64,000 nucleotides of DNA from a virus (IMGVR_UViG_3300025849_000009), one strand, 5' to 3'. Shown: positions 5,745 to 57,485, counted from the first letter of the stretch. Numbers and translations are program-made. The notes: generated from the letters alone by a model not told the origin.

Positions 5745-6028
5745 TATTTGGTTTTCTTTGTGTTTTCGTCAACGGTATAATTTTTAAAATTATTTAAATA
5801 TCTTGCGCCTTTTAATAAATTCTTTAATGCGTCATCTAAGAATATTAAAAAATGTTGCATGGTTTGATTTCTTTGAATGTGACCAGACAAAGATCTGCTA
5901 ATAAATTCCCCTGGAGCTAACTCATCATTGTAGTTAAATCCCGTATGTAATCTATCATCCTTTCTAGATTTAACAGAATCGTATCTTCTACGTTGTCTAT
6001 AGTTAAATAAATTTGTAAATAAACCCAT
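5744..6028 (-). CDS. Hypothetical protein (baseplate operon)
   Basis: 94-aa ORF with 1-nt stop/start overlaps on both sides. Confidence 0.6.
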   Translation of the reverse strand: MGLFTNLFNYRQRRRYDSVKSRKDDRLHTGFNYNDELAPGEFISRSLSGHIQRNQTMQHFLIFLDDALKNLLKGARYLNNFKNYTVDENTKKTK

Positions 6029-7857
6029 TATTTAAGTGCCTTTCTATTTCCAGCTTGTACTCTAGTGTATATTGTTCTAGGTACAGGATCTGCTTCAAAG
6101 TTTATACTTACCGCAGCTTCAGCGTTAATTAATACATCGTCTTCCATGACGTCACCGTCTCTATCTAACCATCCGCCTCTAAAAACAGCAACTTCTTCTT
6201 TTTCCATTATAATATCACCCCATTGATCTAATCCTTTTACCTTAGGAGGAATAATAGTATTTTCATCAACTGGAACCACTTTTACATCCTCTATTTTCTT
6301 AAAGAAAACATGTTTTTGTTTTCCATTTCCTACAGTTTCCAATGTTACTGGTTCTTGTGGAACTACTGTAGTAGTAATTGATTCATAATAACCAAGTCTT
6401 CTTGCAGTCTCTTCCGTCTCTGAAATAAATCTAACATTCACAGCGTCAATACCTGCAACCTCTTCTAAGATATAAATAATATCAGACTTAGGCAGTTTAT
6501 CTCTTCTCGTTATATTTAGTAAGTATGTAGACATTCTCTCTCTTACCGCTGTGTAAATCTCATCCTTAGTATAGCCTTCAAAGAATCTAATATTAATATC
6601 AATACTATATTTTCTTATTTGCGGCCTAACAAAAACAACTTCAGTTGTTACCATTTGTTGACCACTATCTTCTAAAACCTTATGCATTGCATCATACTCA
6701 CCTTGATCAAAGAACATTTCTTCTTGTGGTACAGTAAAGTAATCTTGATTTTTAGCTAACTTCTTATTAACATCTGGCACTGCAAATATATAAATAACAT
6801 TATCGTCATCTAAATATTGATCGTCAGTTGTGTTATATGCATCTATATAAGAGAACATATTGTATCTTGACAGAAAGTATTCATAGTTATCGGGTGTAGC
6901 TAATACAAATGATTTACTTGCAAGCGGTGTCATTATTTTTGTAAATTGAGTATTCTCTCTATCGCTACCCATTTTTGGAGATGATGTAACAGTTACATCT
7001 AAAAATTCATTTAAATCATGTTCTGTTCCATTAGAATCATAACCAGTTGCATCCCACTTAATAGTTAAATCAGGTGAATCATCTAAATTACCAGCAATTC
7101 CAGAATGTTTTACATATTCTACTTTAATACTAGCACCATTAGGTGGCACCATTCCAAAACTTCCATTTCCAAAATAAAGATCCAAACCTCCACTAATACC
7201 TGTTTTAATTAAATACGCCTTCTCATCAGATAACAGATCATAAAGTGATTCATGTTTTGTCCACTGTTCACCATTAACACTTACGGTAACTTTACTGTGA
7301 TCAGTGATTCCACCAGTATTAATGTTAAATGATTGTAATTTTTCACCGTTAGAAGTCACGGTTTGTGATTCAAATTTACCTTGAATTATTGCACTTTTAA
7401 ATGCGTTATAATTTGTTTTTTCTAATTTAAATAATTCAACAGAATTTAATAAAGTATATGTCATTCCGTTAGCATCAAATTTAATTTCTGATCTACCATT
7501 AATATTTAATAAACTTCCTGCTATTTTTGCCATATCAGCACCGGGCTTCCATCTAAATATAATTTCACCAGTAGAAGCAAACCCTCTTGTCGCATCATGG
7601 CCTGTCAATCGTGACATACCATATATTGATTCCGGTTGTTGTGCAGTATATATGTTTTGCTCTACTACAGAATCTTCAATATAATACATAATAAGATCCA
7701 TCATTTCTGATAGTACACTTATTATCTGTGCAAACGGTGAAGCTAAAGTAAACAAAGTGTTAGCCCTATTGTATACCCTAGAAATATAAGTTCTAGCATC
7801 AGCCTTAATAGACTCTGCTCCCGTTCTAATTGTACTTAAAAATTTTAATTCTGCCAT
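6028..7857 (-). CDS. Baseplate wedge subunit (T4 gp6 / baseplate J-like)
   Basis: 'ESIYGMSRLTG', 'LYFGNGSFGMVPPNGASIKVEY' and 'LATPDNYEYFL' motifs of the gp6/J family; next to a gp25-like gene. Confidence 0.8.
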   Translation of the reverse strand: MAELKFLSTIRTGAESIKADARTYISRVYNRANTLFTLASPFAQIISVLSEMMDLIMYYIEDSVVEQNIYTAQQPESIYGMSRLTGHDATRGFASTGEIIFRWKPGADMAKIAGSLLNINGRSEIKFDANGMTYTLLNSVELFKLEKTNYNAFKSAIIQGKFESQTVTSNGEKLQSFNINTGGITDHSKVTVSVNGEQWTKHESLYDLLSDEKAYLIKTGISGGLDLYFGNGSFGMVPPNGASIKVEYVKHSGIAGNLDDSPDLTIKWDATGYDSNGTEHDLNEFLDVTVTSSPKMGSDRENTQFTKIMTPLASKSFVLATPDNYEYFLSRYNMFSYIDAYNTTDDQYLDDDNVIYIFAVPDVNKKLAKNQDYFTVPQEEMFFDQGEYDAMHKVLEDSGQQMVTTEVVFVRPQIRKYSIDINIRFFEGYTKDEIYTAVRERMSTYLLNITRRDKLPKSDIIYILEEVAGIDAVNVRFISETEETARRLGYYESITTTVVPQEPVTLETVGNGKQKHVFFKKIEDVKVVPVDENTIIPPKVKGLDQWGDIIMEKEEVAVFRGGWLDRDGDVMEDDVLINAEAAVSINFEADPVPRTIYTRVQAGNRKALK

Positions 7858-45056: not shown

Positions 45057-46388
45057 TTATTTCTTTCTCATAAATGATACATTAATGTATCTTTTCCCAC
45101 TGTGTATTGGTCTGGCACCATGTTTATGTGTAATCATTCCTGGGTGAATGGTTGCAGTGCCCACTAATTTTGGATTTGATAATATTTTATATTTTGGAAA
45201 CCATGTACCGCCTCCATCAAACTCATCGTTTAATTTTACTACCATTGTAATATGACTAAAGTCGTGATGTAAACTTAAATGAGATTGTCTATCAGTAGTG
45301 TATCTTACCATAAAGTTTTCAGTATCCATATTGTCCCAACCTGCACCTTCTAATTCCCATAAATGTATACAAAGAGGAGAAACTATTTCTCTTACAACTC
45401 TATTATAAATATGATCTAATCCTATTTCTGGTAATAAGACATCGTTTGTTGGATAAAATTCGTGTCTGTCTTTTGTCCATTTATCCATAACTTCTGCCAA
45501 ACCTACGGCTTCTTTACAGAATTTTTCTGTAAATAATGGAAACTCATAAATATTATTTCCTATATCATCTACCATTAAATCATATTCACCCTTAGATACC
45601 GTTTCGTTTACATATTTTGATTTCCATGAATCCCAATCACTATCATCTAATATTTCGAAATATGGTTGTGTTTTCAATAAATTAATATTCGCATCATATG
45701 GTTCTGTCATAGATTGTTCATGCGGTCTATTTTGTTCTATCCAATTATCAACTGGAGCTATCGCTTTAAGTTTTGGTGGAAACAGTATATTAATATCTTG
45801 TCTTCTATGCTCTGTATATGTTGCTGTTAAGAATTCGTCGGGTGCAATTAGATTTTGTTTAAAGTTATAATCATTGACTAGTATTTTTGCAGTGTCTCTT
45901 TTAATTACATACGCGTGTGTATTATAACTACTAAGAGCTGTTACCCATTTATTACTTGCATCAATTCTTTTTTCATCCTTAGAACATATAGCATTTCTAC
46001 CTAAAAATGCAATATCCCATTCTGTATTTGGAATAACTGGATTTGTAAGCGGAGCTACTGAAACAAAATCATCTTCTAATATTAATGCACAATTGACATT
46101 GTTTTCTATTATATTGTTCCATATACTTAAGTGGCTAATTGCACAACCTGCTTCTCCACCAGTAACATCTCTTTTCCACCAATCATTCCATGAATCAGAT
46201 CCTAAATTCCATAAATCATATACACTATGTCCATCTAATAAATTACCTGAAGTTCCATCAAAACCTTGAACTATTTCCCATTCTACAGAATATGGCATAC
46301 CAAGTTGATCTACCCTGGTGGCAATGTTTCTCTGAATACTTGGATCTCCGGCATTCAAACTTATAATATAAATTTTATCTATTTTCAT
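45057..46388 (-). CDS. GT25 (procollagen galactosyltransferase-like) fused to PLOD-like 2OG-Fe(II) lysyl hydroxylase
   Basis: GT25 part: 'IYIISL', 'FDG', 'GEAGCAISH..IW', 'LILEDD', 'DEFL'. Oxygenase part: 'PTND', 'NFMVRY...Q..L.LHHD.S', 'GGGT.F', 'HPG.ITH.H......G.RYI.VSF'. Likely start M9. Confidence 0.85.
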   Translation of the reverse strand: MKIDKIYIISLNAGDPSIQRNIATRVDQLGMPYSVEWEIVQGFDGTSGNLLDGHSVYDLWNLGSDSWNDWWKRDVTGGEAGCAISHLSIWNNIIENNVNCALILEDDFVSVAPLTNPVIPNTEWDIAFLGRNAICSKDEKRIDASNKWVTALSSYNTHAYVIKRDTAKILVNDYNFKQNLIAPDEFLTATYTEHRRQDINILFPPKLKAIAPVDNWIEQNRPHEQSMTEPYDANINLLKTQPYFEILDDSDWDSWKSKYVNETVSKGEYDLMVDDIGNNIYEFPLFTEKFCKEAVGLAEVMDKWTKDRHEFYPTNDVLLPEIGLDHIYNRVVREIVSPLCIHLWELEGAGWDNMDTENFMVRYTTDRQSHLSLHHDFSHITMVVKLNDEFDGGGTWFPKYKILSNPKLVGTATIHPGMITHKHGARPIHSGKRYINVSFMRKK

Positions 46389-47404
46389 ATAGATTCTAAT
46401 ATGTTTTTCCAATCATATGATCTGGCATTCCATGTTTGTTGTTTAGACCATTTATAAGCATCATTAATTGATTTATCTTTAAGTCCACTACTTAGTGTAC
46501 CTAGTATTTGTATAACCTGATTCCAATTTGTTTCATTTCTTTCTAAGATAACTCCACTATTTACAGTCTCTTTTAATGCTGCTACCGTGGTAACAATAGG
46601 TAATACTTTGGCATATTGCATTTCAAGCGCAGTAATACAATATGTTTCTTCATAATCAGTTACATAGCACCAATATTCTGCACGTAACATTGCAGCGTGT
46701 AATGTTTCTTGATCTACTGTACCATGACACGTAACTTCTTCAAACTTATTAAATGAATAGTCAGTATGATTTGCTATAGAATAGCCTGGAGAATATATGT
46801 CTAATGTTGCATGTGGCATTATATCTTTTATCTTTGGCCAGTTTTTTAATAATTCTAATAAGCCACGTTCAGGTGCAGAACTATATATGAATTTACCTTT
46901 TATTTTTTCAGGAGTACCATTAAATGTCGAAGGATCAATGGCATTACCAATCACTGAGATTTTATTTAAAGGTATATTATATGTGTGTGCCCAATGATTC
47001 TTATGCCAGTTAGTCAAACAAATTGTATGATCAACTTGTTGTGTTAAAATGTTTGCGTCTCCTAACACTTTATGATTCCACCATGGGTGATGATGTGTAT
47101 TATGTGCCCAAAATACTTTCTTTGCTGAATACCCTTCAAACTCTTTTAGAAAATGGATATAACTTGCAGATATAATATAATCAAACTGATCAAAATATTT
47201 TTCATGAACAGTATGTGTTGATATCCATTCTACACCATCAATTAAACCAGAATCTTTTACTTCACCAGAAACCACAACCTTATAACCAAATTTAACTATC
47301 TCTTTAGCTATATTAATTATAGCAATTTCAGTTCCTGCTAATCCAATACTGGTATTGCTATCAAATTTGTTTTTTTGATAACCCGCATAAAATAATATTC
47401 TCAT
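46385..47404 (-). CDS. GT-B glycosyltransferase (GT4-like)
   Basis: 'GLAGTE', 'YSSAPERGL..LL', 'YEETYCITALE' (E-x7-E). Confidence 0.85.
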   Translation of the reverse strand: MRILFYAGYQKNKFDSNTSIGLAGTEIAIINIAKEIVKFGYKVVVSGEVKDSGLIDGVEWISTHTVHEKYFDQFDYIISASYIHFLKEFEGYSAKKVFWAHNTHHHPWWNHKVLGDANILTQQVDHTICLTNWHKNHWAHTYNIPLNKISVIGNAIDPSTFNGTPEKIKGKFIYSSAPERGLLELLKNWPKIKDIMPHATLDIYSPGYSIANHTDYSFNKFEEVTCHGTVDQETLHAAMLRAEYWCYVTDYEETYCITALEMQYAKVLPIVTTVAALKETVNSGVILERNETNWNQVIQILGTLSSGLKDKSINDAYKWSKQQTWNARSYDWKNILESI

Positions 47405-48364: not shown

Positions 48365-48438
48365 ATATAAAAAGTAATTTAATAGTTATACACAATAACA
48401 TGTGTTTGTTTAATTATTTATCTCATTTATTTTTAGAG

Positions 48439-48469
48439 CAAAAAAAAAGCATACCTAAGTATGCTTTTT
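48439..48469 (-). terminator. Intrinsic terminator after the Thr-rich gene pair
   Basis: AAGCATAC-TTAG-GTATGCTT plus T-run. Confidence 0.85.
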
Positions 48470-48487
48470 AAATTAATTGAGTTATTT

Positions 48488-51310
48488 CTAGTTACCATTA
48501 TAACTGTTTACTCTCCATTGTCTATTTGTATTATAAACATCTAGTGGTTCGTTAGTTGAATACCAAGTTTCTTGTACTTCGTAATCTGTACTCCACGTTG
48601 TAGTAATAGCACTTGTTGTAGATCTCGTTGTGTTCCACGTTGTTGTTGTGTTCCATGTGGTATTCCACGAAGTAGTAACACTATAGATAGTTGACCATAT
48701 AGTCGTTGTCGATTTAGATGTCGCTGCATTTGTATTAAATGTAGTCGTAGTTGATCTAGTCGTATTAAATGTGGTCGTAGTCGAGTGGCTTGTATTAAAT
48801 GTAGTCGTAGTCGTTTTAGACGTTGTTTGAGACGTATTAAATGTTGTCACCCATGATGTAGTCCATGAAGTTGTCGTTGACTGATTAGTATTAAACGTTG
48901 TCAACCAAGTTGTATTAAATGTAGTTATAGTTGACTTACTAGTTTGATATTGTGTAGTCCACGATGTTGTACGTGTATAGTTTGTAATTCTACTAGTTTC
49001 CCAAGTTGTTGTCCATGCAGTTGTCGTCGCATGTTCTGTTCCCCTATTAGTTCCTCTGGATGTACTCCATATAGTTACTGTCGAATGAGACGTTCCATGA
49101 TTCGTAGACTGGGACGTATTAAACGTAGTCGTAGTTGAATGCTCTGTTGACCTAGTTGTATTCCATGAAGTAGTCCATGAAGTATTGAACGTAGTTACTG
49201 TAGATTTACTTGTTGACCATGTTGTTGTAAACGTAGTCGTTGTTGAATGTTCTGTTCCTCTAGTCGTGTTCCATGAAGTTGTCCATGATGTATTGTAAAC
49301 TGTAGTCGTTGCTCTAGTCGTATTCCATGATGTGTTAAAAACTGTAGTAGTCACATGCTCTGTTCCTCTAGTCGTGTTCCATGAAGTTGTCCATGAGGTA
49401 GTATAACTCGTCGTCGTAGCTCTACTAGTTGACCATGTTGTATTAAATGTAGTTGTTGTAGATTTAGTCGTTGACTGATTAGTATTAAACGTCGTTGTCC
49501 ATGAGGTAGTATAACTCGTCGTCGTAGCTCTACTAGTTGACCACGTTGTATTAAATGTAGTTGTTGTAGATTTAGTCGTTGACTGATTAGTATTAAACGT
49601 TGTCACCCACGAAGTAGTCCACGAAGTTAACGTTGTTTTAGTTGTGTTCCATGTTGTGTTATAAACCGTAGTAGTTGACCTAGAAGTTGACTGATTTGTA
49701 TTAAAAGTAGTAGTCGTTGTTCTAGAAGTAGATCTCTTTGTATTTCGCGATGTTATCCAAGTAGTATTAAATGTTGTCGTAGTCGATTTGCTAGTTGACC
49801 ACGCTGTATTGTAAACTGTTGTTGTGGTTTTATTCGTGCCTCTGGTTGTGTTCCATGAGGTAGTCCACGAAGTAGTCCACGAAGTTAGCGTTGATTTAGT
49901 TGTGTTCCATGATGTGTTATAAACCGTAGTAGTTGACCTAGAAGTTGACTGACTTGTATTAAATGTTGTCGTAGTCGATTTACTAGTTGATCTAGTTGTA
50001 TTTCTTGATGTTGACCAGGTTGTCGTAAATGTTGTCGTAGTCGATTTACTTGTTGACTGGCTTGTATTAAAAGTTGTAGTTGTAGATTTATTAGTTCCTC
50101 TACTAGTTCCTCTTACGGTGTTCCATGAAGTTGTCCATGTAGTTACAGTGGATTTGCTAGTTGACTGACTTGTATTAAAAGTTGTCGTTGTTGCTCTAGT
50201 TGTGTTCCATGTCGTTGTAGTAGATTTACTAGTTGACCATGTTGTAGTCCAATTAGTTGTAGTAGATTTACTAGTTATAAACGTCGTTGTAGTAGATTTA
50301 CTAGTTGCAAATGTAGTAGTAGTTGAATGTTCCGTTGATCTACTAGTTATAAATGTTGTTGTAGTAGATTTAGACGTATTAAACGTAGTCGTTGTCGATT
50401 TACTAGTTGCCCATGTAGTCGTGGTTGCACGCGTTGTATTCCTATGAGTTGCAAATGTAGTTGTAGTAGATTTAGACGTATTAAACGTAGTCGTTGTTGA
50501 TTTACTAGTTGCCCACGTAGTCGTGGTTGCACGCTCCGTTGACTGACTTGTACTAAATGTAGTCGTTGTTGATTTACTAGTTGCCCATGTAGTCGTGGTT
50601 GCACGCGTTGTATTCCAAGATGTATTATATACAGTCGTTGTTGTTTTAGTTGTGTTCCACGTCGTTGTAGTTGCGCGTGATGTATTCCATGTAGTCGTGG
50701 TTGCACGCTCCGTTGACTGACTTGTACTAAATGTGGTCGTGGTTGCACGTGTTGTATTAAATGTTGTTGTGGTTGCACGTGTTGTATTCCACGAAGTAGT
50801 CCACGAAGTTAGCGTTGATTTAGTTGTATTGAACGTCGTCGTCGTAGCTCTAGTTGTATTCCAAGATGTATTGTATACGGTCGTGGTTGCACGCGTTGTG
50901 TTATACGTAGTCGTGGTTGCACGTGTTGTATTAAATGTTGTTGTTGTCGCCCTAGATGTAGATTGACTTGTATTCCACGACGTCGTAGTCGCCTTAGACG
51001 TATTCCACGTCGTCGTAGTCGCCCTAGACGTATTCCACGTCGTCGTAGTCGTCTTAGATGTACTCTTACTTGTATTATATGTCGTCGTCGTATTTTTATC
51101 TGTGAACCATGACGTCGTAACTTTAGTTGACCACCCCGTTGAAGTAGATTTATCTGTAAGTACATTCCAATAGGTAGTTTTTGCCGTATTCCTAGAAGTT
51201 GCCCTATTATATGACGTGTATAATGAAGTTGTTCGAGAATAACTAGTCGTCTTCAACGTGCTCCTAGATCCGGCGGTTAACCAAGTAGTATTAAAAAAAG
51301 TAGTAGGCAT
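48488..51310 (-). CDS. Thr/Ser-repeat fibre protein A (940 aa); antiparallel complement of protein B
   Basis: Quasi-repeat units of 10/14/18/22 aa (e.g. TTTTFNTSKS), each with aromatics first and K/R/Q/H after. Confidence 0.85.
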   Translation of the reverse strand: MPTTFFNTTWLTAGSRSTLKTTSYSRTTSLYTSYNRATSRNTAKTTYWNVLTDKSTSTGWSTKVTTSWFTDKNTTTTYNTSKSTSKTTTTTWNTSRATTTTWNTSKATTTSWNTSQSTSRATTTTFNTTRATTTTYNTTRATTTVYNTSWNTTRATTTTFNTTKSTLTSWTTSWNTTRATTTTFNTTRATTTTFSTSQSTERATTTTWNTSRATTTTWNTTKTTTTVYNTSWNTTRATTTTWATSKSTTTTFSTSQSTERATTTTWATSKSTTTTFNTSKSTTTTFATHRNTTRATTTTWATSKSTTTTFNTSKSTTTTFITSRSTEHSTTTTFATSKSTTTTFITSKSTTTNWTTTWSTSKSTTTTWNTTRATTTTFNTSQSTSKSTVTTWTTSWNTVRGTSRGTNKSTTTTFNTSQSTSKSTTTTFTTTWSTSRNTTRSTSKSTTTTFNTSQSTSRSTTTVYNTSWNTTKSTLTSWTTSWTTSWNTTRGTNKTTTTVYNTAWSTSKSTTTTFNTTWITSRNTKRSTSRTTTTTFNTNQSTSRSTTTVYNTTWNTTKTTLTSWTTSWVTTFNTNQSTTKSTTTTFNTTWSTSRATTTSYTTSWTTTFNTNQSTTKSTTTTFNTTWSTSRATTTSYTTSWTTSWNTTRGTEHVTTTVFNTSWNTTRATTTVYNTSWTTSWNTTRGTEHSTTTTFTTTWSTSKSTVTTFNTSWTTSWNTTRSTEHSTTTTFNTSQSTNHGTSHSTVTIWSTSRGTNRGTEHATTTAWTTTWETSRITNYTRTTSWTTQYQTSKSTITTFNTTWLTTFNTNQSTTTSWTTSWVTTFNTSQTTSKTTTTTFNTSHSTTTTFNTTRSTTTTFNTNAATSKSTTTIWSTIYSVTTSWNTTWNTTTTWNTTRSTTSAITTTWSTDYEVQETWYSTNEPLDVYNTNRQWRVNSYNGN

Positions 51311-51385
51311 TCTCTATCTCTGTTGTTTTTTTATATATTTAAATTCTTTAATCATTTTATTTCTTAAAAAGTCTCTTAGTACTAC

Positions 51386-54300
51386 TTACCAAGCACAATC
51401 ACGCTCAGAATAACATATAGAACGAAAATCGCAATAATCTTCTGGACTACACAGTTGTTCTTTGTTATTATGTGTTAAAATTCCATTTGCAAAGAATGTA
51501 TCATTAGGTTCTACATCTAATTTATAAACAGTATATTGATTAACTTCATCTATTTCTAAAGATTCTATCAGAAATTCTCCATAATCCATTTTAAACATAA
51601 CATCACCAATCTCTAGGTGCTCCGCTAGTTTTGCTTGCCACATACCATCTCTTTTTATAATATGTATATGTGCCATGGTAGTTCTTAATTGGTCATTATT
51701 TATGCTAACTGTTCCTATAACGTCTGCTCTCCAAATACCGGAAACATTATGTTCATTAGATAATGTATTTGTGTATACTTCTTCTTCCCTAATTGTTGGT
51801 AATACAGTCATGTCATCTGTATTAAATGCTCCATCCATAGTTAAAATACTCTGGCCATGCACTAACGTTTCAACTGGTCTTTGTATTCCTTCAGCAATAT
51901 GTACTAGTGTTCCTTCAACTATACATTCCTCTATTGTGCTTCTAGATGTTCCACGAGATGTGTTGACATACAATGCTGTATTGTAACTTGTGATATATGA
52001 AACTGATGTATTCCAGGAAGTTATTTGCCCTGCACCACCACCTGAACTATTATCTGCAGGAACTAAAGTAATCCATGTTGTTGTTTTAGTTGTTGATCTA
52101 GAATATCCTGTAGAAACCTTTGTAATAGTTGACTTACTTGTATTTCTGTCAGTTACCCTAGAAGTTGCAAACCTAGTATTAGTAGATTTACTAGTTGCAA
52201 AAGTGGTCGTGTACGTCGTTGTCGTCGATCTACTAGTTGCAAATGTCGTTGTCGTCGATCTACTAGTTGCAAATGTTGTTGTTGTATTTCTACTAGTGAT
52301 CCAGTAAGTTGTCCATGCAGTTGTCGTCGATTTACTAGTTGACCAAGTTGTTGTTGTCGATCTACTAGTTGCAAATGTCGTTGTCGTCGTATGCTCTGTG
52401 CTTCTACTAGTACTAAATGTAGTCGTTGTAGATCTACTAGTTGCAAATGTTGTTGTTGTATTTCTACTAGTTCCTCGAGTCGTACCAAAAGTGGTCGTTG
52501 TTGATTTAGTTGTGTTGAACGTCGTCGTTGTTGACCTAGTTGTATTCCAAGATGTATTGTATACAGTCGTGGTTGCACGCGTTGTGTTCCAATTAGTTGT
52601 AGTAGATTTACTAGTAGCAAATGTTGTTGTGGTAGAATGCTCTGTGCCTCTACTAGTACTAAATGTAGTCGTTGTTGATTTAGTTGTGTTCCACGTCGTC
52701 GTCGTAGCTCTAGTTGTATTCCAAGATGTATTGAACACTGTAGTTGTAGACTGACTTGTATTCCATGTAGTCGTTGTTGATCTAGTTGTATTGTATACGG
52801 TCGTTGTTGATCTAGTTGTATTCCATGTTGTTTTAAATGTAGTCGTTGTAGACTGACTTGTATTCCATGTAGTCGTTGTTGATCTAGTTGTATTATATAC
52901 GGTCGTTGTTGATTTAGTTGTATTCCAAGATGTATTGTATACAGTCGTTGTTGCTCTAGTTGTGTTCCACGTCGTCGTTGTTGATCTAGTTGTGTTCCAT
53001 CGTGTTGTTGTTGACTTACTAGTAGACTGATTTGTGTTAAATGTTGTTGTCGTCGATTTACTAGTAGCAAATGTTGTTGTGGTAGATTTACTAGTTGACC
53101 ATGTTGTATTAAACGTAGTCGTTGTGTTTTTGGACGTTGATTTGGAAGTCAACACAGTTGTGTTCCATGAAGTTGTCCATGAAGTTGTAGTAGCTCTACT
53201 AGTTGACCACGTTGTATTAAATGTAGTTGTTGTAGATTTAGTCGTTGACTGACTTGTATTAAAGGTTGTACCAAATGTGGTTGTCCATGTAGTTGTCGTC
53301 GATTTACTAGTTGACCATGTTGTATTAAACGTAGTTGTTGTCGCATGCTCTGTGCTTCTACTAGTTACAAATGTTGTTGTTGTATTTCTACTAGTTGCTC
53401 TATTAGTTCCTCGACTTGTTACCCAAGTAGTTGTCCATGCAGTTGTTGTGGTGTGCGAAGTTGATTGACTAGTATTAAACGTAGTTGTTGTAGAACGATT
53501 CGTTGATCTAGTTGTATTCCATGAAGTAGTCCAAGCTGTGTCAAAAGTAGTAGTTGTAGATTTACTTGTTGACCATGTTGTTGTAAACGTAGTCGTTGTC
53601 GAATGTTCTGTTCCTCTACTTGTTACCCATGTTGTTGTGGTATTTTTACTAGTCGCCTTAGACGTTGATTTACTAGTAGACCAAGTTGTTGTCCATGTAG
53701 TTACTGTAGATTTACTTGTTGACTGACTTGTATTAAAAGTCGTTGTCGTAGATTTAGTAGTTGACCTAGAAGTTGACTTACTAGTTGACCAAGTTGTCGT
53801 AAATGTTGTTGTTGTTGATTTACTTGTTGACTGACTTGTATTAAAAGTTGTAGTTGTCGATTTACTAGTTACTTTACTTGTTGTTTGACTAGTGATCCAA
53901 GTTGTATTATATGTCGTTGTTGTCGAACGAGATGTTGATTGACTAGTACTAAACCTGGTCGTTGTTGAATGTTCAGTGCTTCTAGAAGTTATCTGAGATG
54001 TAATCCAAGTTGTATTATATGTAGTCGTTGTTGATCTAGATGTCGACTGATTTGTGTTAAATGTTGTTGTAGTACTACGATTAGTAGATCTTGTTGTCGT
54101 TTGACTAGTGATCCACGTTGTATTATACACTGTTGTTGTAGATCTATTAGTTGACCATGACGTTGTATATGTCGTAATATAAGAAGTTGTCGTTGATTTA
54201 CTTGTATTCCAAGAAGTTGTCCAATATGTAGTGTATGATGTAGTTGTACTTCTAGATGTGGATTGACTTGTGTTCCAGGTTGTTTCAACAGGATACAATG

Positions 54301-54736
54301 TGGATTGACTAGTTGTCCAACTAGTTGTCCATGTAGTAGTTGTAGCCCTCTCAGTTGATTGTGACGTGTTTTTAGAAGTCGACCATGTTGTTGTTGTAGT
54401 TCTATCAGTTTCTAAAGATGTTTCTCTAGAAGTGCTCCATGATGTAGTCCACGATGTTGTCGTTGATCTAGAAGTTGCATATACAGTATTAGTACTACGA
54501 GATGTATTGAAAGTTGTTGTTGTCGATTTACTAGTTGCCCATGTAGTGATCCATGTTGTCACCGTGGATTGACTAGTATTTCGTACTTTGTTAGTAGTTC
54601 TCGAAGTATTTCTATTTTCAGATGTAGTTTTGGAAGTAGCCCAAGTAGTATTCTTAGCTACGAGTGTACCCTTAGATGTATTCTGTGCACTTCCGGTACT
54701 CCAAAAGTCGATTCTTGAAAATCCTATATTCTTCAT
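51386..54736 (-). CDS. Thr/Ser-repeat fibre protein B (1116 aa) with C-terminal Hint domain and Cys-rich tail
   Basis: Same repeat grammar as A with unit order reversed; Hint at aa 938-1090. Confidence 0.85.
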   Translation of the reverse strand: MKNIGFSRIDFWSTGSAQNTSKGTLVAKNTTWATSKTTSENRNTSRTTNKVRNTSQSTVTTWITTWATSKSTTTTFNTSRSTNTVYATSRSTTTSWTTSWSTSRETSLETDRTTTTTWSTSKNTSQSTERATTTTWTTSWTTSQSTLYPVETTWNTSQSTSRSTTTSYTTYWTTSWNTSKSTTTSYITTYTTSWSTNRSTTTVYNTTWITSQTTTRSTNRSTTTTFNTNQSTSRSTTTTYNTTWITSQITSRSTEHSTTTRFSTSQSTSRSTTTTYNTTWITSQTTSKVTSKSTTTTFNTSQSTSKSTTTTFTTTWSTSKSTSRSTTKSTTTTFNTSQSTSKSTVTTWTTTWSTSKSTSKATSKNTTTTWVTSRGTEHSTTTTFTTTWSTSKSTTTTFDTAWTTSWNTTRSTNRSTTTTFNTSQSTSHTTTTAWTTTWVTSRGTNRATSRNTTTTFVTSRSTEHATTTTFNTTWSTSKSTTTTWTTTFGTTFNTSQSTTKSTTTTFNTTWSTSRATTTSWTTSWNTTVLTSKSTSKNTTTTFNTTWSTSKSTTTTFATSKSTTTTFNTNQSTSKSTTTRWNTTRSTTTTWNTTRATTTVYNTSWNTTKSTTTVYNTTRSTTTTWNTSQSTTTTFKTTWNTTRSTTTVYNTTRSTTTTWNTSQSTTTVFNTSWNTTRATTTTWNTTKSTTTTFSTSRGTEHSTTTTFATSKSTTTNWNTTRATTTVYNTSWNTTRSTTTTFNTTKSTTTTFGTTRGTSRNTTTTFATSRSTTTTFSTSRSTEHTTTTTFATSRSTTTTWSTSKSTTTAWTTYWITSRNTTTTFATSRSTTTTFATSRSTTTTYTTTFATSKSTNTRFATSRVTDRNTSKSTITKVSTGYSRSTTKTTTWITLVPADNSSGGGAGQITSWNTSVSYITSYNTALYVNTSRGTSRSTIEECIVEGTLVHIAEGIQRPVETLVHGQSILTMDGAFNTDDMTVLPTIREEEVYTNTLSNEHNVSGIWRADVIGTVSINNDQLRTTMAHIHIIKRDGMWQAKLAEHLEIGDVMFKMDYGEFLIESLEIDEVNQYTVYKLDVEPNDTFFANGILTHNNKEQLCSPEDYCDFRSICYSERDCAW
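51467..51925 (-). other. Hint (intein-like/BIL) autoprocessing domain
   Basis: Block A 'CIVEGTLV', block B 'TTMAH', block F/G 'VYKLDVEPNDTFFANGILTHN'; the +1 residue is Asn, not C/S/T. Confidence 0.85.
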
Positions 54737-54761
54737 ATTGTTCCTCTAATTTATTCTATTA

Positions 54762-57485
54762 TTACGCAAAATTTCCAATGTAGTTAACTAATACTGCGTC
54801 AACATCTATTATAATATATGATATAATAGATACTGCACCAGGAGTAGTTACCCATTGAATGTCAGCACCTGAGGGTGTTTTCATATAGGATGGTAATGCA
54901 TTGTATCCTGCACCTACACCATTATAGATTACTATAGTTCCAGATTGACCTACGTTGTCGTTACCTATGTTAGACATTGTAATATCAATTGATCCCGTTG
55001 CTGTAAATGCAAATGCGTCACCTTGATCAGGCTTAATGTCATAAACACCTCCAACACCGTTAACCGATATAATATCTCTTTTTAAAGCACCTGTTAAATA
55101 TAAATCATGATGCTCAACATTTGAATCTGTTTTTGTATGTTGATCCATTGCAGTTGCATAGGTATTAGAAGTACCAGTATTACCTTTTAAACCTGAAGAA
55201 CCTGAAGAACCACTTGATCCAGAAGATCCGTTAGTTCCATCAGTTCCTGAAGAACCTGAAGTTCCGTTTGTTCCTGAAGTTCCATTCGTTCCTGAAGTTC
55301 CATTCGTTCCTGAAGTTCCATTCGTTCCTGAAGAACCACTAGATCCACTTGAACCTGAAGTTCCGTTTGTTCCACTAGTTCCATCAGTTCCTGAAGAACC
55401 TGAAGTTCCGTTAGTTCCACTTGTACCGTCAGTTCCTGAACTTCCACTTGAACCTGAAGATCCGCTTGTACCATTCGTTCCACTTGTACCATTTGTACCA
55501 GACGTTCCATCAGTTCCTGAACTTCCACTTGATCCACTTGATCCTGAAGTTCCATCGGTTCCTGAAGTTCCGTTAGTTCCTGAAGTTCCATCAGTTCCTG
55601 AACTTCCACTTGAACCTGAACTTCCATCAGTTCCTGAAGAACCTGAACTTCCATTTGTTCCATTAGTCCCTGAAGAACCAGCTGGTCCTTGAATAGAACC
55701 GCCTCCAATCCAACCATCTGCTTGTGTAAATACCCAAAGAGAATCGTCTGATTGTACTATATATGCATCACCGTCAGAATTACCGCTTGTTGGTAAATTT
55801 GATGATGTAGCTACTTGTCCTTGCATTGAAACACCCCAACCTGGATTACCTTGTGCACCTGAAGATCCACTTGATCCAGAAGATCCACTAGAACCATCCG
55901 TTCCTGAAGAACCCGAACTTCCGTTTGTTCCATTCGTTCCACTTGTACCATTGATACCACTAGTTCCATCAGTTCCTGAACTTCCGTTTGTTCCACTTGT
56001 ACCGTCAGTTCCTGAAGAACCTGAACTTCCATTAGTTCCTGAAGTTCCATTCGTTCCTGAAGTTCCATTTGTTCCTGAAGTTCCATCAGTTCCTGAACTT
56101 CCACTTGAACCTGAAGATCCACTTGATCCGTTAGTTCCTGATGTTCCATTCGTTCCTGAAGTTCCATCAGTTCCTGAACTTCCATCAGTTCCTGAGCTTC
56201 CACTTGATCCGTCAGTTCCTGAAGTTCCATTCGTTCCTGAAGTTCCATCAGTTCCTGAAGTTCCATCAGTTCCTGAAGAACCGCTTGAACCCGAACTTCC
56301 ATTTGTTCCATCAGTTCCTGAACTTCCATTTGTTCCTGAAGTTCCATCAGTACCGCTTGTACCTGGAGCTCCTTTTTGTCCTTTAACACCGCTCGATCCA
56401 GAAGATCCGTTAGTTCCATTAATTGCTGGAGTTCCAGGAGCACCTTTAGCTCCGGTTGCACCAACGGGAATAGTAAAATCAAATTCAGCTGCAGTTGAGG
56501 TTCCAGTATTAGTAACACTTACTGGTGTATTTTCTAATCCAGTAGATACTGTTCCTACTGCAATTGTACCTGTAATTCCTGAAGATCCGCTTGAACCTGA
56601 ACTTCCGCTTGATCCATCAGTTCCTGATGTTCCAACATATACTACTCTACCTACAATTTCATTGCCATTTTGAGAATGAGTTAATATTAAATTATTTCCA
56701 GATAAAGTTGCTCCACTATAATTGTCACCTTTAACACCATCAACTCCACTTGTTCCATCCGTTCCTGAAGATCCACTAGAACCATCCGTTCCTGAAGTTC
56801 CGTTAGTTCCACTAGTACCATCAGTTCCTGAACTTCCACTTGATCCACTTGATCCTGAAGTTCCATCGGTTCCTGAAGTTCCGTTAGTTCCTGAACTTCC
56901 ACTTGAACCGTTTGTTCCCGAAGAACCTGAAGTCCCACTTACACCACTCGTTCCATCAGTTCCTGAACTTCCACTTGATCCATTTGATCCCGAGGTTCCT
57001 GATGTTCCAACATCACCAATAGGTTGAATAAACATAAATAAAGAATCATTATCACTAACATTATTCCAATTAGAACTTGAAATAGGTTGTAAGTTAAATG
57101 TTCTTTGTCCAGAAGCAGTTGTGTTTCCTGTTACATAGAATGATTTATTTGCATTACCATCAGTTGATTTTGCTAATACAATAATAGACTTATAACTATT
57201 AGATGAAGCGACTGCAGCATTTAATGTTACGGTTGCTGAACCACCTCTAGCATTAGTTTCACTTACAATTATTTTACTAGGATTACTAGGATTATCAAAC
57301 GCTAAATCACCAGAAGAAACTGTCGTGGGATTTGTTGCGTTATTATAAACATAAGGAAGTCCAAACGTATTTGGTAATTGTTGGTTTTCATACTTTCCGG
57401 TACTTGCATTATATGACAATACTTCACCAGTAGATGGAGAAGAAGATAAAAAGTCAAGTATTTGTTTTAATTTCAATTGAGACAT
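54762..57485 (-). CDS. Collagen-like fibre (Pro-poor G-T/S-X triplets) with interspersed knob domains
   Basis: Long GTS/GTD/GTN/GSS triplet tracts; knobs 'TIAVGTVSTG..VSVTNTGT..A.FDFTIP' and 'QGQVATSSNLP.SGN.DGDAYIV'. Confidence 0.85.
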   Translation of the reverse strand: MSQLKLKQILDFLSSSPSTGEVLSYNASTGKYENQQLPNTFGLPYVYNNATNPTTVSSGDLAFDNPSNPSKIIVSETNARGGSATVTLNAAVASSNSYKSIIVLAKSTDGNANKSFYVTGNTTASGQRTFNLQPISSSNWNNVSDNDSLFMFIQPIGDVGTSGTSGSNGSSGSSGTDGTSGVSGTSGSSGTNGSSGSSGTNGTSGTDGTSGSSGSSGSSGTDGTSGTNGTSGTDGSSGSSGTDGTSGVDGVKGDNYSGATLSGNNLILTHSQNGNEIVGRVVYVGTSGTDGSSGSSGSSGSSGITGTIAVGTVSTGLENTPVSVTNTGTSTAAEFDFTIPVGATGAKGAPGTPAINGTNGSSGSSGVKGQKGAPGTSGTDGTSGTNGSSGTDGTNGSSGSSGSSGTDGTSGTDGTSGTNGTSGTDGSSGSSGTDGSSGTDGTSGTNGTSGTNGSSGSSGSSGSSGTDGTSGTNGTSGTNGTSGTNGSSGSSGTDGTSGTNGSSGTDGTSGINGTSGTNGTNGSSGSSGTDGSSGSSGSSGSSGAQGNPGWGVSMQGQVATSSNLPTSGNSDGDAYIVQSDDSLWVFTQADGWIGGGSIQGPAGSSGTNGTNGSSGSSGTDGSSGSSGSSGTDGTSGTNGTSGTDGTSGSSGSSGSSGTDGTSGTNGTSGTNGTSGSSGSSGSSGTDGTSGTNGTSGSSGTDGTSGTNGTSGSSGSSGSSGTNGTSGTNGTSGTNGTSGTNGTSGSSGTDGTNGSSGSSGSSGSSGLKGNTGTSNTYATAMDQHTKTDSNVEHHDLYLTGALKRDIISVNGVGGVYDIKPDQGDAFAFTATGSIDITMSNIGNDNVGQSGTIVIYNGVGAGYNALPSYMKTPSGADIQWVTTPGAVSIISYIIIDVDAVLVNYIGNFA

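What the first reader, a model, noticed from the sequence alone, without database searches (positions are those of the whole stretch)
48580..54690. A specific pairing sub-code inside the zipper: Q pairs with W and H pairs with Y
SEEN: in register 928, every His I traced at a pattern position faces Tyr in the partner (8 in A and 6 in B; e.g. A STEH vs B VYNT). Every Gln in the repeat body faces Trp (more than 25 cases, in both directions; one Q:Y at the fringe). K/R pair with F, W or Y. INFERENCE: the interface uses distinguishable pair types rather than generic hydrophobic/charge matching, analogous to base pairing. It could be reused as a programmable peptide-hybridisation code.
Basis: partly seen in the sequence, partly recalled or inferred. 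Interest (0 to 1): 0.9.

Follow-up and report, generated by a model that had tools for sequence, protein, structure and literature searches.

The report
Residue-pairing code in two-chain phage fibre
Two neighbouring threonine-rich phage proteins match each other residue by residue when one is read backwards. Within that match glutamine always faces tryptophan and histidine always faces tyrosine, a rule that co-evolves across related phages and looks like a natural pairing code for a very long two-chain beta fibre.

Summary

**In the window.** Chain A is 48488-51310 (-), 940 aa. Chain B is 51386-54736 (-), 1116 aa. They are complementary in one ungapped antiparallel register, A(i):B(928-i), over 855 residues. 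Aromatic faces K/R/Q/H at 183 positions, against 99 in the next best register. Counts are Q:W 28, Q:Y 2, Q:F 0, and H:Y 14, H:W 0, H:F 0. K and R accept F, W and Y.

**Not a repeat or DNA artefact.**
- No DNA inverted repeat was found.
- Wrong registers obey the rule only about 25-55% of the time.
- Shuffling aromatic identities gives 17 ± 3 obeying pairs, against 42 observed.

**In related phages.**
- Every other complete gene pair found from marine phage contigs keeps the rule, each in its own register.
- One lineage (L028) uses almost only Q:W (49) and H:Y (46), with no exception.
- Among close relatives, indels are matched at mirror positions.
- At 29 variable sites the Q state always has W and the H state always has Y. 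One invariant fringe site carries Q:Y.

**Reading.** This is most likely a split beta-hairpin fibre with specific cross-strand pairs. The code is one-sided, not bijective, and no structure was obtained. This scan found the mirror fibre before on other DNA. No paper found in the text searches describes it.

The parts
51386..54736 (-). Gene B (P0002, 1116 aa): a conserved N-terminal motif (MKNIGFSRIDFW), a Thr-rich zipper body, an irregular tip, a Hint domain and a Cys-rich tail.
   Evidence: An AGAGGA Shine-Dalgarno-like motif lies upstream. Orthologues occur in L001-L004, L009 and L013-L028.
52121..54685 (-). B zipper body, residues 18-872. It pairs with A residues 910-56 in register 928.
   Evidence: A gapped complementarity alignment gives a single ungapped block.
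51926..52120 (-). B tip region, residues 873-937. It is irregular and includes a Gly-rich stretch (SSGGGAG). Its register relative to A1-55 is ambiguous.
   Evidence: Registers 934 and 938 tie at 4 complementary pairs each.
51467..51925 (-). Hint (intein-like) autoprocessing domain of B, Cys938 to Asn1090. It has an invariant Cys1, a TxxH block and a terminal HN. The residue after HN is not a nucleophile.
   Evidence: Alignment A1 gives the invariant residues. The profile matches solved inteins at E 5e-4 to 2e-2.
51389..51466 (-). Cys-rich C-terminal tail of B (residues 1091-1116), with four invariant Cys.
48488..51310 (-). Gene A (P0001, 940 aa): a Thr-rich zipper partner with a conserved C-terminal motif (QWRVNSY). 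It always lies directly downstream of B.
   Evidence: A purine-rich motif lies upstream of the ATG. The gene order is the same in all loci.
48581..51145 (-). A zipper body, residues 56-910.

Best explanation
A and B are the two arms of a split giant beta-hairpin. After B is made, A, the next gene, pairs with it antiparallel and in register, residue for residue. The result would be a two-chain beta ribbon of about 855 residue pairs, roughly 0.3 micrometres if fully extended. It may be bundled further, as in the T4 gp37 needle.

All informative positions are an even number of residues apart, so they lie on one face of the strands. There an aromatic residue of one chain sits opposite a polar partner of the other.

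Three kinds of pair exist:
- K/R with any aromatic, which I infer to be cation-pi.
- Q with W only.
- H with Y only.

I infer that the two neutral pairs are hydrogen-bonded, Gln amide to indole NH and imidazole to phenol OH. Phe has no such group and so needs K/R.

The units are irregular in length (10 and 14 residues) and carry different pair types in an irregular order. Together these act as a barcode that makes one register far better than all others. The ratio of neutral to cationic pairs sets the fibre's charge: +122 in the window, about +6 in lineage L028.

The Hint domain at B's C-terminus sits at the hairpin tip and probably cleaves itself off. Whether it also ligates the two chains is open.

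Shown: the sequence complementarity, its uniqueness, and its covariation. Inferred: the beta-ribbon geometry, the side-chain chemistry, and the fibre role.
For: 1. The register is single, ungapped and unique. It holds 183 complementary pairs against 99 for the next best. Self-pairing and parallel controls are far lower.
2. All spacings between informative pairs are even: 4 (114 times), 6 (58), 8 (6), plus 10, 12 and 16. That is the two-residue periodicity of a beta strand. The body is 46% Thr with almost no Pro and no Cys.
3. The relation is not at DNA level. There are no inverted repeats, and T:T pairs cannot arise from antisense coding.
4. Related gene pairs keep the relation, each in its own register: 962 (L001/L002/L018), 1026 (L004), 406 (L009), 707/709 (L028).
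5. Indels are matched. Between the window and L001, A gains 10 aa at 170 and 24 aa at 265. B gains 24 aa near 642 and 10 aa at 754, the mirror places.
6. The sub-code holds in every lineage: Q:W 28/30, 28/29, 34/35, 23/24, 15/16 and 49/49. H:Y is 14/14, 17/17, 16/16, 42/42, 8/8 and 46/46 of pairs with an aromatic partner. Q:F, H:W and H:F are zero everywhere.
7. Site-wise covariation: at 29 variable sites the Q state is always opposite W and the H state always opposite Y. When the aromatic is F, the partner is K/R.
8. Wrong registers and shuffles do not reproduce the rule.
9. F is rare (4) where K/R are rare (9), in L028.
10. A single-chain relative exists. DLP6-like baseplate proteins carry a self-mirror hairpin. 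A low-confidence AlphaFold model of one has long strands and breaks that mirror about the register predicted from sequence.
Against: - No structure exists. The AlphaFold model of the single-chain relative has mean pLDDT 41.5, and its contacts could not be inspected.
- A free two-stranded ribbon 0.3 micrometres long would have exposed edges, so the real assembly is probably more complex.
- Part of the Q:W association is contextual. In the window, Q sits mostly in the middle of an Ar-x3-Q-x3-basic triple, where the partner is W even when the polar residue is R (15 cases).
- In the distant fold-back family Q faces F and Y, so Q:W is not a universal chemical necessity.
- Repeat units are related by duplication, so raw counts overstate independence. 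One 108-nt duplication in A is 99% identical.
- No evidence was obtained that the proteins are expressed, cleaved or present in virions.
Confidence: 0.7

Rival explanations
1. The arms do pair, but not as a simple two-stranded ribbon. Several hairpins would bundle, for example three into a six-stranded needle like the T4 gp37 tip, or ribbons would stack face to face. The Q/W and H/Y rule would then reflect packing in that bundle rather than a one-to-one cross-strand contact.
For: Phage fibres are usually trimeric. The gp37 needle is a six-stranded antiparallel structure built from three fold-back chains (PMC9659904). An isolated ribbon of this length is physically implausible. L004 carries extra decorations on the other face, WQ and YY opposite G.
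Against: The rule is strictly between directly opposed positions i and K-i. No second register stands out. This rival changes the geometry, not the existence of a pairing rule.
Confidence: 0.2
2. The sub-code is a by-product of repeat history. A few complementary unit types, each carrying a fixed pair, were amplified together, and there is no selection on which polar residue faces which aromatic.
For: H:Y in the window sits almost always in one unit pair, RGTEH opposite VYNT. Q:W sits mostly in one triple context. Units are clearly related by duplication.
Against: - Flanks differ between lineages (S-H-S opposite T-Y-T in L028), yet H:Y holds 46 of 46.
- In L004, within a single context, K/R take F, W and Y while Q takes only W.
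- 29 sites flip between close relatives without one forbidden state.
- DNA repeats are mostly only 62-85% identical.
- The two chains are separate genes in opposite unit order, so co-amplification has no simple DNA mechanism.
Confidence: 0.06
3. The mirror relation is a nucleic-acid-level effect, such as an ancient inversion read antisense or mRNA pairing between the two genes, rather than protein pairing.
For: K(AAA):F(TTT) is an in-frame antisense pair. The relation is antiparallel, as nucleic-acid pairing would be.
Against: There are no inverted repeats of 20 nt or more across 48400-54800. The dominant T:T pairs (ACN opposite ACN), W:R, Q:W and H:Y cannot all be produced by any single antisense frame. 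This follows from reasoning on the genetic code.
Confidence: 0.01
4. A and B are mainly mucin-like O-glycosylation scaffolds. The aromatic/polar pattern would serve glycosyltransferase recognition rather than chain pairing.
For: The proteins are 44-46% Thr. Glycosyltransferase genes (GT25-dioxygenase, GT4, DUF2827) lie beside them.
Against: This does not explain mirror complementarity, matched indels or pair covariation. Pro, typical of mucin domains, is almost absent. Glycosylation could coexist with pairing on the other face.
Confidence: 0.03

Closest known systems
Needle domain of the phage T4 long-tail-fibre tip, gp37 (Bartual et al. 2010, as described in PMC9659904)
   Same: A phage fibre made of chains that run out and fold back. 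This gives long antiparallel beta strands in register and a slender rod.
   Different: gp37 is a homotrimer of single chains about 100 residues per arm. It is held by His-coordinated iron (from my own knowledge), with no aromatic:basic mirror code. Here the two arms are separate gene products of about 855-990 paired residues with residue-specific covariation. There is no detectable sequence similarity.
Trp-Arg layered core of thrombospondin type 1 repeats (PMC2173040) and the related WSXWS ladders
   Same: Antiparallel strands held by alternating Trp and Arg from different strands, a cation-pi ladder.
   Different: TSRs are 60-residue disulfide-bonded domains with a WxxWxxW motif and three strands. 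Here there are no Cys, the spacings are 4 and 6, there are hundreds of pairs, two chains, and additional Q:W and H:Y pair types.
Coiled-coil (leucine-zipper) pairing rules, e.g. buried Asn:Asn and e/g charge pairs that set partner, orientation and register (general knowledge)
   Same: A long two-chain zipper in which a minority of special polar pairs among generic contacts specifies partner and register. The rules are readable from sequence.
   Different: Coiled coils are alpha-helical with a heptad repeat. This is a beta-strand duplex with period 2 and a different alphabet. It is a functional analogy only.
DLP6-like 'baseplate wedge subunit' proteins (P0007 and 18 relatives, Pfam PF23786 N-terminus)
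   Same: They are Thr-rich, with aromatic:Arg mirror complementarity at spacings of 4 and 6 and a unique fold-back register. H faces only Y.
   Different: They are single chains with about 250 residues per arm. They have no Trp and no Hint domain, and Q faces F or Y. Similarity to A is only 31-40% over compositionally biased repeats.
C-terminal intramolecular chaperone / autocleaving domains of phage fibres and tailspikes (Peptidase S74; general knowledge) and Hint/BIL domains
   Same: A self-processing domain at the C-terminal end of a fibre protein, probably removed after assembly.
   Different: Here the domain has the Hint (intein) fold, not S74. It sits at the tip where the partner chain's N-terminus arrives.

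Membership tests
Any curated protein family (Pfam-A, PHROGs) for the zipper bodies | Significant profile match | tested here: not met
   No Pfam family at E<=0.1 and no PHROG at E<=0.01 for P0001 or P0002. The Atlas neighbours are unnamed viral clusters.
Hint / intein superfamily (C-terminal domain of B) | N-terminal nucleophile Cys/Ser as first residue | tested here: met
   Invariant Cys (window B Cys938) in the motif EC[IV]VEG in all four aligned lineages. L028 has CLVEG.
Hint / intein superfamily (C-terminal domain of B) | Block B TxxH and terminal His-Asn; sequence similarity to solved inteins | tested here: met
   Invariant T89/T90...H93 and H159-N160. The profile hits DnaX, gp41-1 and DNA polymerase inteins at E 5e-4 to 2e-2.
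Splicing intein (as opposed to a cleaving Hint/BIL domain) | Cys/Ser/Thr nucleophile immediately after the terminal Asn, and a C-extein in the same ORF | tested here: not met
   The residue after HN is N, K, R or F. The ORF ends after a 25-aa Cys-rich tail, and A starts 75 nt downstream at its own ATG.
Thrombospondin type 1 repeat (Trp-Arg layered fold) | WxxWxxW motif and six conserved Cys in about 60 aa | tested here: not met
   There are no Cys in the zipper bodies. Aromatic spacings are 4, 6 and 10, not 3. No Pfam TSP_1 hit.
Tryptophan zipper type beta-hairpins | Cross-strand Trp:Trp pairs | tested here: not met
   W:W occurs once among 927 opposed positions. W faces K, R or Q.
TxT ice-binding / antifreeze beta-solenoids | Constant coil length with TxT on one face of a single-chain solenoid | tested here: not met
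   Unit lengths vary irregularly between 10, 14 and longer. The informative relation is between two chains in antiparallel order.
Mucin-like Pro/Thr/Ser O-glycosylation domains | High Pro with Thr/Ser and no fixed register | tested here: not met
   One Pro in 1710 body residues, and a strict register. Glycosylation itself is not testable here.
T4 gp37-type fold-back needle | Homotrimeric six-stranded needle with HxH metal sites | not testable with these tools
   There is no sequence similarity and no HxH motifs can be seen in the translations. The oligomeric state is unknown and structure prediction failed.
Mirror-coded two-gene phage fibre (this scan's earlier findings e1-5343396, e1-5366186) | Adjacent B then A genes, an ungapped antiparallel aromatic:polar complementarity, and a Hint cap on B | tested here: met
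   The same architecture occurs in L001-L004, L009, L013 and L028.

The most novel reading that the evidence does not exclude
Phages have evolved a sequence-readable pairing alphabet for antiparallel beta strands. It has two specific neutral pairs (Q:W, H:Y) and a generic cationic pair (K/R:aromatic) on a Thr:Thr background. With it, two separately encoded chains 'hybridise' in a single register over nearly a thousand residues. Lineage L028 shows that the two neutral letters alone can carry the whole duplex. Such a code could be transplanted to design register-specific beta-strand heteroduplexes and nanofibres.
Probability: 0.5. Interest if true: 0.92.

Novelty: categorically new. Interest (0 to 1): 0.86.

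Why it matters
Sequence-readable pairing rules are known for nucleic acids, coiled coils and, in part, collagen. No such rule is known for beta strands, whose pairing is notoriously hard to program.

Here evolution supplies a large natural data set. It holds hundreds of opposed positions per gene pair, several diverged lineages, matched indels and compensatory changes. Together these point to specific cross-strand pair types and to a barcode that fixes register in a fibre about 0.3 micrometres long.

If confirmed physically, three things would follow:
- a new principle of fibre construction in large marine phages;
- a testable set of beta-sheet pair energetics (Q:W, H:Y, cation-pi);
- a design alphabet for heterodimeric beta materials.

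It also raises an evolutionary question. How do two genes keep mirror-ordered repeat arrays in step?

Tried and rejected
- **Antisense or inverted-repeat origin.** No inverted DNA repeats were found. Codon logic excludes T:T, W:R, Q:W and H:Y in any single antisense frame. Rejected.
- **Simple periodicity.** Self-antiparallel and parallel comparisons and all other registers give at most about half the complementary pairs. Rejected.
- **Complex prediction.** I submitted B201-400 with A528-727. The result was 'no answer' (ipSAE 0.00, controls not run). This is not evidence either way.
- **AlphaFold2 of P0016:590-874.** This is a natural single-chain mini-hairpin with window-like units. With a single sequence the model had pLDDT 34 and was unusable.
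- **AlphaFold2 of the DLP6-like fold-back region with a 19-sequence alignment.** The model had pLDDT 41.5. Only the mirrored strand boundaries are noted, and contacts could not be inspected.
- **Single-sequence Hint query in viral contigs.** It found nothing. The alignment query worked.
- **tblastn of the Hint domain against cultured phages.** It gave one weak hit in a Vibrio phage ATPase intein region, so no cultured close relative was found.
- **No whole genome is held for this window**.
It is not unique. Registers 934 and 938 tie at 4 pairs each.
- **Literature searches.** I searched for Thr-rich jumbo-phage fibres, two-stranded ribbons, cross-strand Gln-Trp pairs and Hint-capped fibres. 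None found a description of this system.
Full report
**What is there**

The finding spans two adjacent genes on the minus strand. B is P0002 (51386-54736, 1116 aa). A is P0001 (48488-51310, 940 aa) and starts 75 nt after B's stop. Both have purine-rich ribosome-binding-like motifs.

Both proteins are about 44% Thr. They are built from irregular 10- and 14-residue units such as TTTTWNTSRA, TTTTFNTSQSTSKS and TTTVYNTSWNTTRA. Neither matches any Pfam or PHROG family.

The setting is a large tailed phage:
- A collagen-like protein lies upstream (P0003).
- GT25-dioxygenase, GT4 and DUF2827 genes flank the pair.
- A gp6-like baseplate wedge gene lies at 6028-7857.
- Relatives sit on IMG/VR and marine metagenome contigs.
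- Atlas neighbours are unnamed Uroviricota clusters.

**Check of the observation**

I opposed A(i) to B(928-i) and counted pairs.

| Pair | Count |
|---|---|
| Q:W | 28 (12 + 16) |
| Q:Y | 2 |
| Q:F | 0 |
| H:W | 0 |
| H:F | 0 |
| K/R : F/W/Y | 139 |
| T:T | 303 |
| N:S | 73 |

I then scanned every register. K=928 has 183 aromatic:polar pairs, against 99 for the runner-up and a median of 7. Self-antiparallel and parallel comparisons reach no more than about half of that. A gapped complementarity alignment returns one ungapped block, B18-872 with A910-56. These limits are almost exactly the finding's coordinates.

**Is it more than chance or repeats?**

- No inverted DNA repeat exists in 48400-54800. 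No antisense frame can give T:T, W:R, Q:W and H:Y together.
- In the true register 42 of 44 Q/H:aromatic pairs obey the rule. In the next-best registers, which still have general complementarity, 11/22, 7/27, 6/16 and 18/32 obey.
- Shuffling which aromatic sits at which aromatic position gives 17.3 ± 3.0 obeying pairs, with a maximum of 28 in 2000 shuffles.
- DNA repeats are mostly 62-85% identical, so most units are old. One 108-nt duplication in A is 99% identical.
- Context matters in part. In the window Q:W sits mostly in the middle of an Ar-x3-Q-x3-basic triple, where R:W also occurs 15 times.
- H:Y occupies a context where K/R take F 16, W 12 and Y 4. In L004's triple context K/R take F 17, W 11 and Y 11, while Q takes W 15 of 15.

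**Related sequences**

Homologous B-then-A pairs were recovered from IMG/VR and marine metagenomes. Each has its own unique register, and the sub-code holds in all.

| Locus | Pair size (aa) | Register K | Complementary pairs (next best) | Sub-code |
|---|---|---|---|---|
| L001, L002, L018 | 1149 + 974 | 962 | 185-188 (99-103) | Q:W 28-34, H:Y 16-17 |
| L013 | near-window variant | 928 | 180 (99) | Q:W 33, H:Y 15 |
| L004 | 1211 + 1042 | 1026 | 209 (126) | Q:W 23, Q:Y 1, H:Y 42 |
| L009 | 569 + 410 | 406 | 64 (33) | Q:W 15, Q:Y 1, H:Y 8 |
| L028 | A truncated | 707 then 709 (2-residue bulge) | 67 ungapped at K=709 (52) | Q:W 49, H:Y 46 |

Q:F, H:W and H:F are zero in every pair. L028 is the most telling case. 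It has almost no K/R (K:W 1, R:W 8) and no exception to the rule, and Phe is correspondingly rare.

**Covariation**

Between the window and L001 (about 82% identity), A carries insertions of 10 aa at 170 and 24 aa at 265. B carries 24 aa near 642 and 10 aa at 754, the mirror positions. About 30 informative pairs have changed on both sides. Examples are K:F->Q:W, R:F->H:Y, Y:H->F:R and W:R->Q:W.

Across five variants of the window clade, 29 duplex sites vary in a way that involves Q or H. At all 21 Q sites the Q state faces W. At all 8 H sites the H state faces Y, five or six of them through double changes. No forbidden state occurs at these variable sites; one invariant fringe site in the clade carries Q:Y. 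K/R partners are roughly half W and under a tenth Y, so this cannot be drift. I did not model the phylogeny formally.

**What it most likely is**

All spacings between informative pairs are even. The composition is dominated by beta-branched Thr, with essentially no Pro or Cys. The pairing is one-to-one and antiparallel.

The simplest reading is a two-chain antiparallel beta ribbon, in effect a hairpin split into two genes. Informative pairs would sit on one face, and T:T, N:S and E:N pairs elsewhere. Fully extended, 855 pairs give about 0.3 micrometres.

I infer that K/R:aromatic pairs are cation-pi contacts. I infer that Q:W and H:Y are hydrogen-bonded neutral pairs. This would explain why Phe never faces Q or H.

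The irregular order of unit lengths and pair types works as a register barcode. Wrong registers lose half the pairs and mismatch half of the Q/H pairs.

The ratio of cationic to neutral pairs changes the duplex charge from +122 in the window to about +6 in L028.

**The hairpin tip**

B's C-terminus meets A's N-terminus at a Hint domain. The domain has an invariant Cys1, a TxxH block and a terminal HN, and it resembles solved inteins. It lacks the +1 nucleophile needed for splicing.

In L004 the body register runs to 18 residues before the catalytic Cys and places A's Met1 two residues from it. In the window the tip is irregular, and registers 934 and 938 tie.

Gene order (B, then A) fits zippering from the tip as A is made. 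That step is inference.

**Limits**

- No usable structure was obtained.
- The assembly may be a bundle, as in the T4 gp37 needle (PMC9659904), rather than a bare ribbon.
- The code is one-sided, since W and Y also accept K/R.
- A distant single-chain fold-back family, the DLP6-like baseplate proteins, has no Trp. There Q faces F (26) or Y (22), while H still faces only Y (15 of 15). H:Y therefore looks general, and Q:W looks specific to the two-gene family.
- For that family a low-confidence AlphaFold model shows long strands, 17-64 with 484-534 and 78-124 with 423-471. These mirror about the register predicted from sequence. This is weak support for the fold-back strand arrangement.

**Comparison with the known, and novelty**

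The nearest precedents are:
- the gp37 fold-back needle;
- the Trp-Arg layers of thrombospondin repeats (PMC2173040);
- coiled-coil pairing rules, as an analogy;
- autocleaving C-terminal domains of phage fibres.

None has two separately encoded, mirror-ordered chains with residue-specific pair covariation. Text searches found no description of this system.

This scan has already reported the mirror-coded two-gene fibre on other DNA (e1-5343396, e1-5366186) and a fold-back version (e1-5378795). What this report adds is a test of the Q:W / H:Y sub-code, its covariation, the neutral-code lineage L028, and the limits of the code.

Noticed in passing
L028:1-6734 (Ga0208923_1000741): A lineage whose zipper is almost entirely neutral: Q:W 49, H:Y 46, and only 9 K/R pairs. 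It has a 2-residue bulge (register 707 then 709), and its Hint Cys sits at position 709, equal to the register. A is truncated by the contig end.
   Followed up: partly
P0007 (Stenotrophomonas phage DLP_6 'baseplate wedge subunit') and P0008-P0028: The C-terminal ~600 residues of these T4-like baseplate proteins are single-chain mirror hairpins. P0007 has register i+j=1949 with 40 pairs against 23 for the next best. The pairs are R:F and R:Y, and Thr is invariant at alternate positions. This links the two-gene fibre to an annotated structural protein of a cultured phage.
   Followed up: partly
P0016 residues ~595-840: A metagenomic protein with a globular N-terminal part. It has two short arms of window-like units (TTTTWNTSKS...) separated by a ~60-aa insert. 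The arms are self-complementary at i+j=1385/1395, so this is a possible mini single-chain version.
   Followed up: partly
L011:6918-9158 (also L010, L012): An unrelated fibre-like protein of 746 aa that is not Thr-rich. It carries a Hint-like segment beginning ECIVEGSLV about 220 residues before its C-terminal end. This suggests Hint domains are reused as processing modules on different phage fibre-like proteins.
   Followed up: no
L001 vs L002, A residues 68-86 and B residues 881-894: Even between 90-92% identical variants, small 4-residue shifts near the tip occur in both chains at mirror positions.
   Followed up: no
L004:9656-16459: The other strand face carries its own recurring decoration. 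A Gln directly after Trp (WQ) appears in one chain and a YY doublet in the other, with the second Tyr opposite Gly. This may be a second-face contact or a bundle interface.
   Followed up: no
window 49386-49600: A 108-nt (36-aa) tandem duplication in A is 99% identical at DNA level. The facing two units in B are only about 70% identical. This suggests recent homogenisation in one chain only, tolerated because the facing units were already equivalent.
   Followed up: partly
window 54762-57485 and 45057-47404: A 907-aa collagen-like protein (G-S/T-S/D/N triplets) lies immediately upstream of B. A GT25-2OG-dioxygenase fusion and a GT4 lie downstream of A. Together they may form one glyco-fibre module with the zipper pair.
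   Followed up: no
window 54689-54736 and 48488-48580; same ends in L004 and L009: The 'open end' of the duplex is conserved across lineages: B N-terminus MK[NQ]IGFS[RK]I[DN].W and, in the window clade and L004, A C-terminus ...QWRVNSY.... This may be an attachment module formed by both chains.
   Followed up: no
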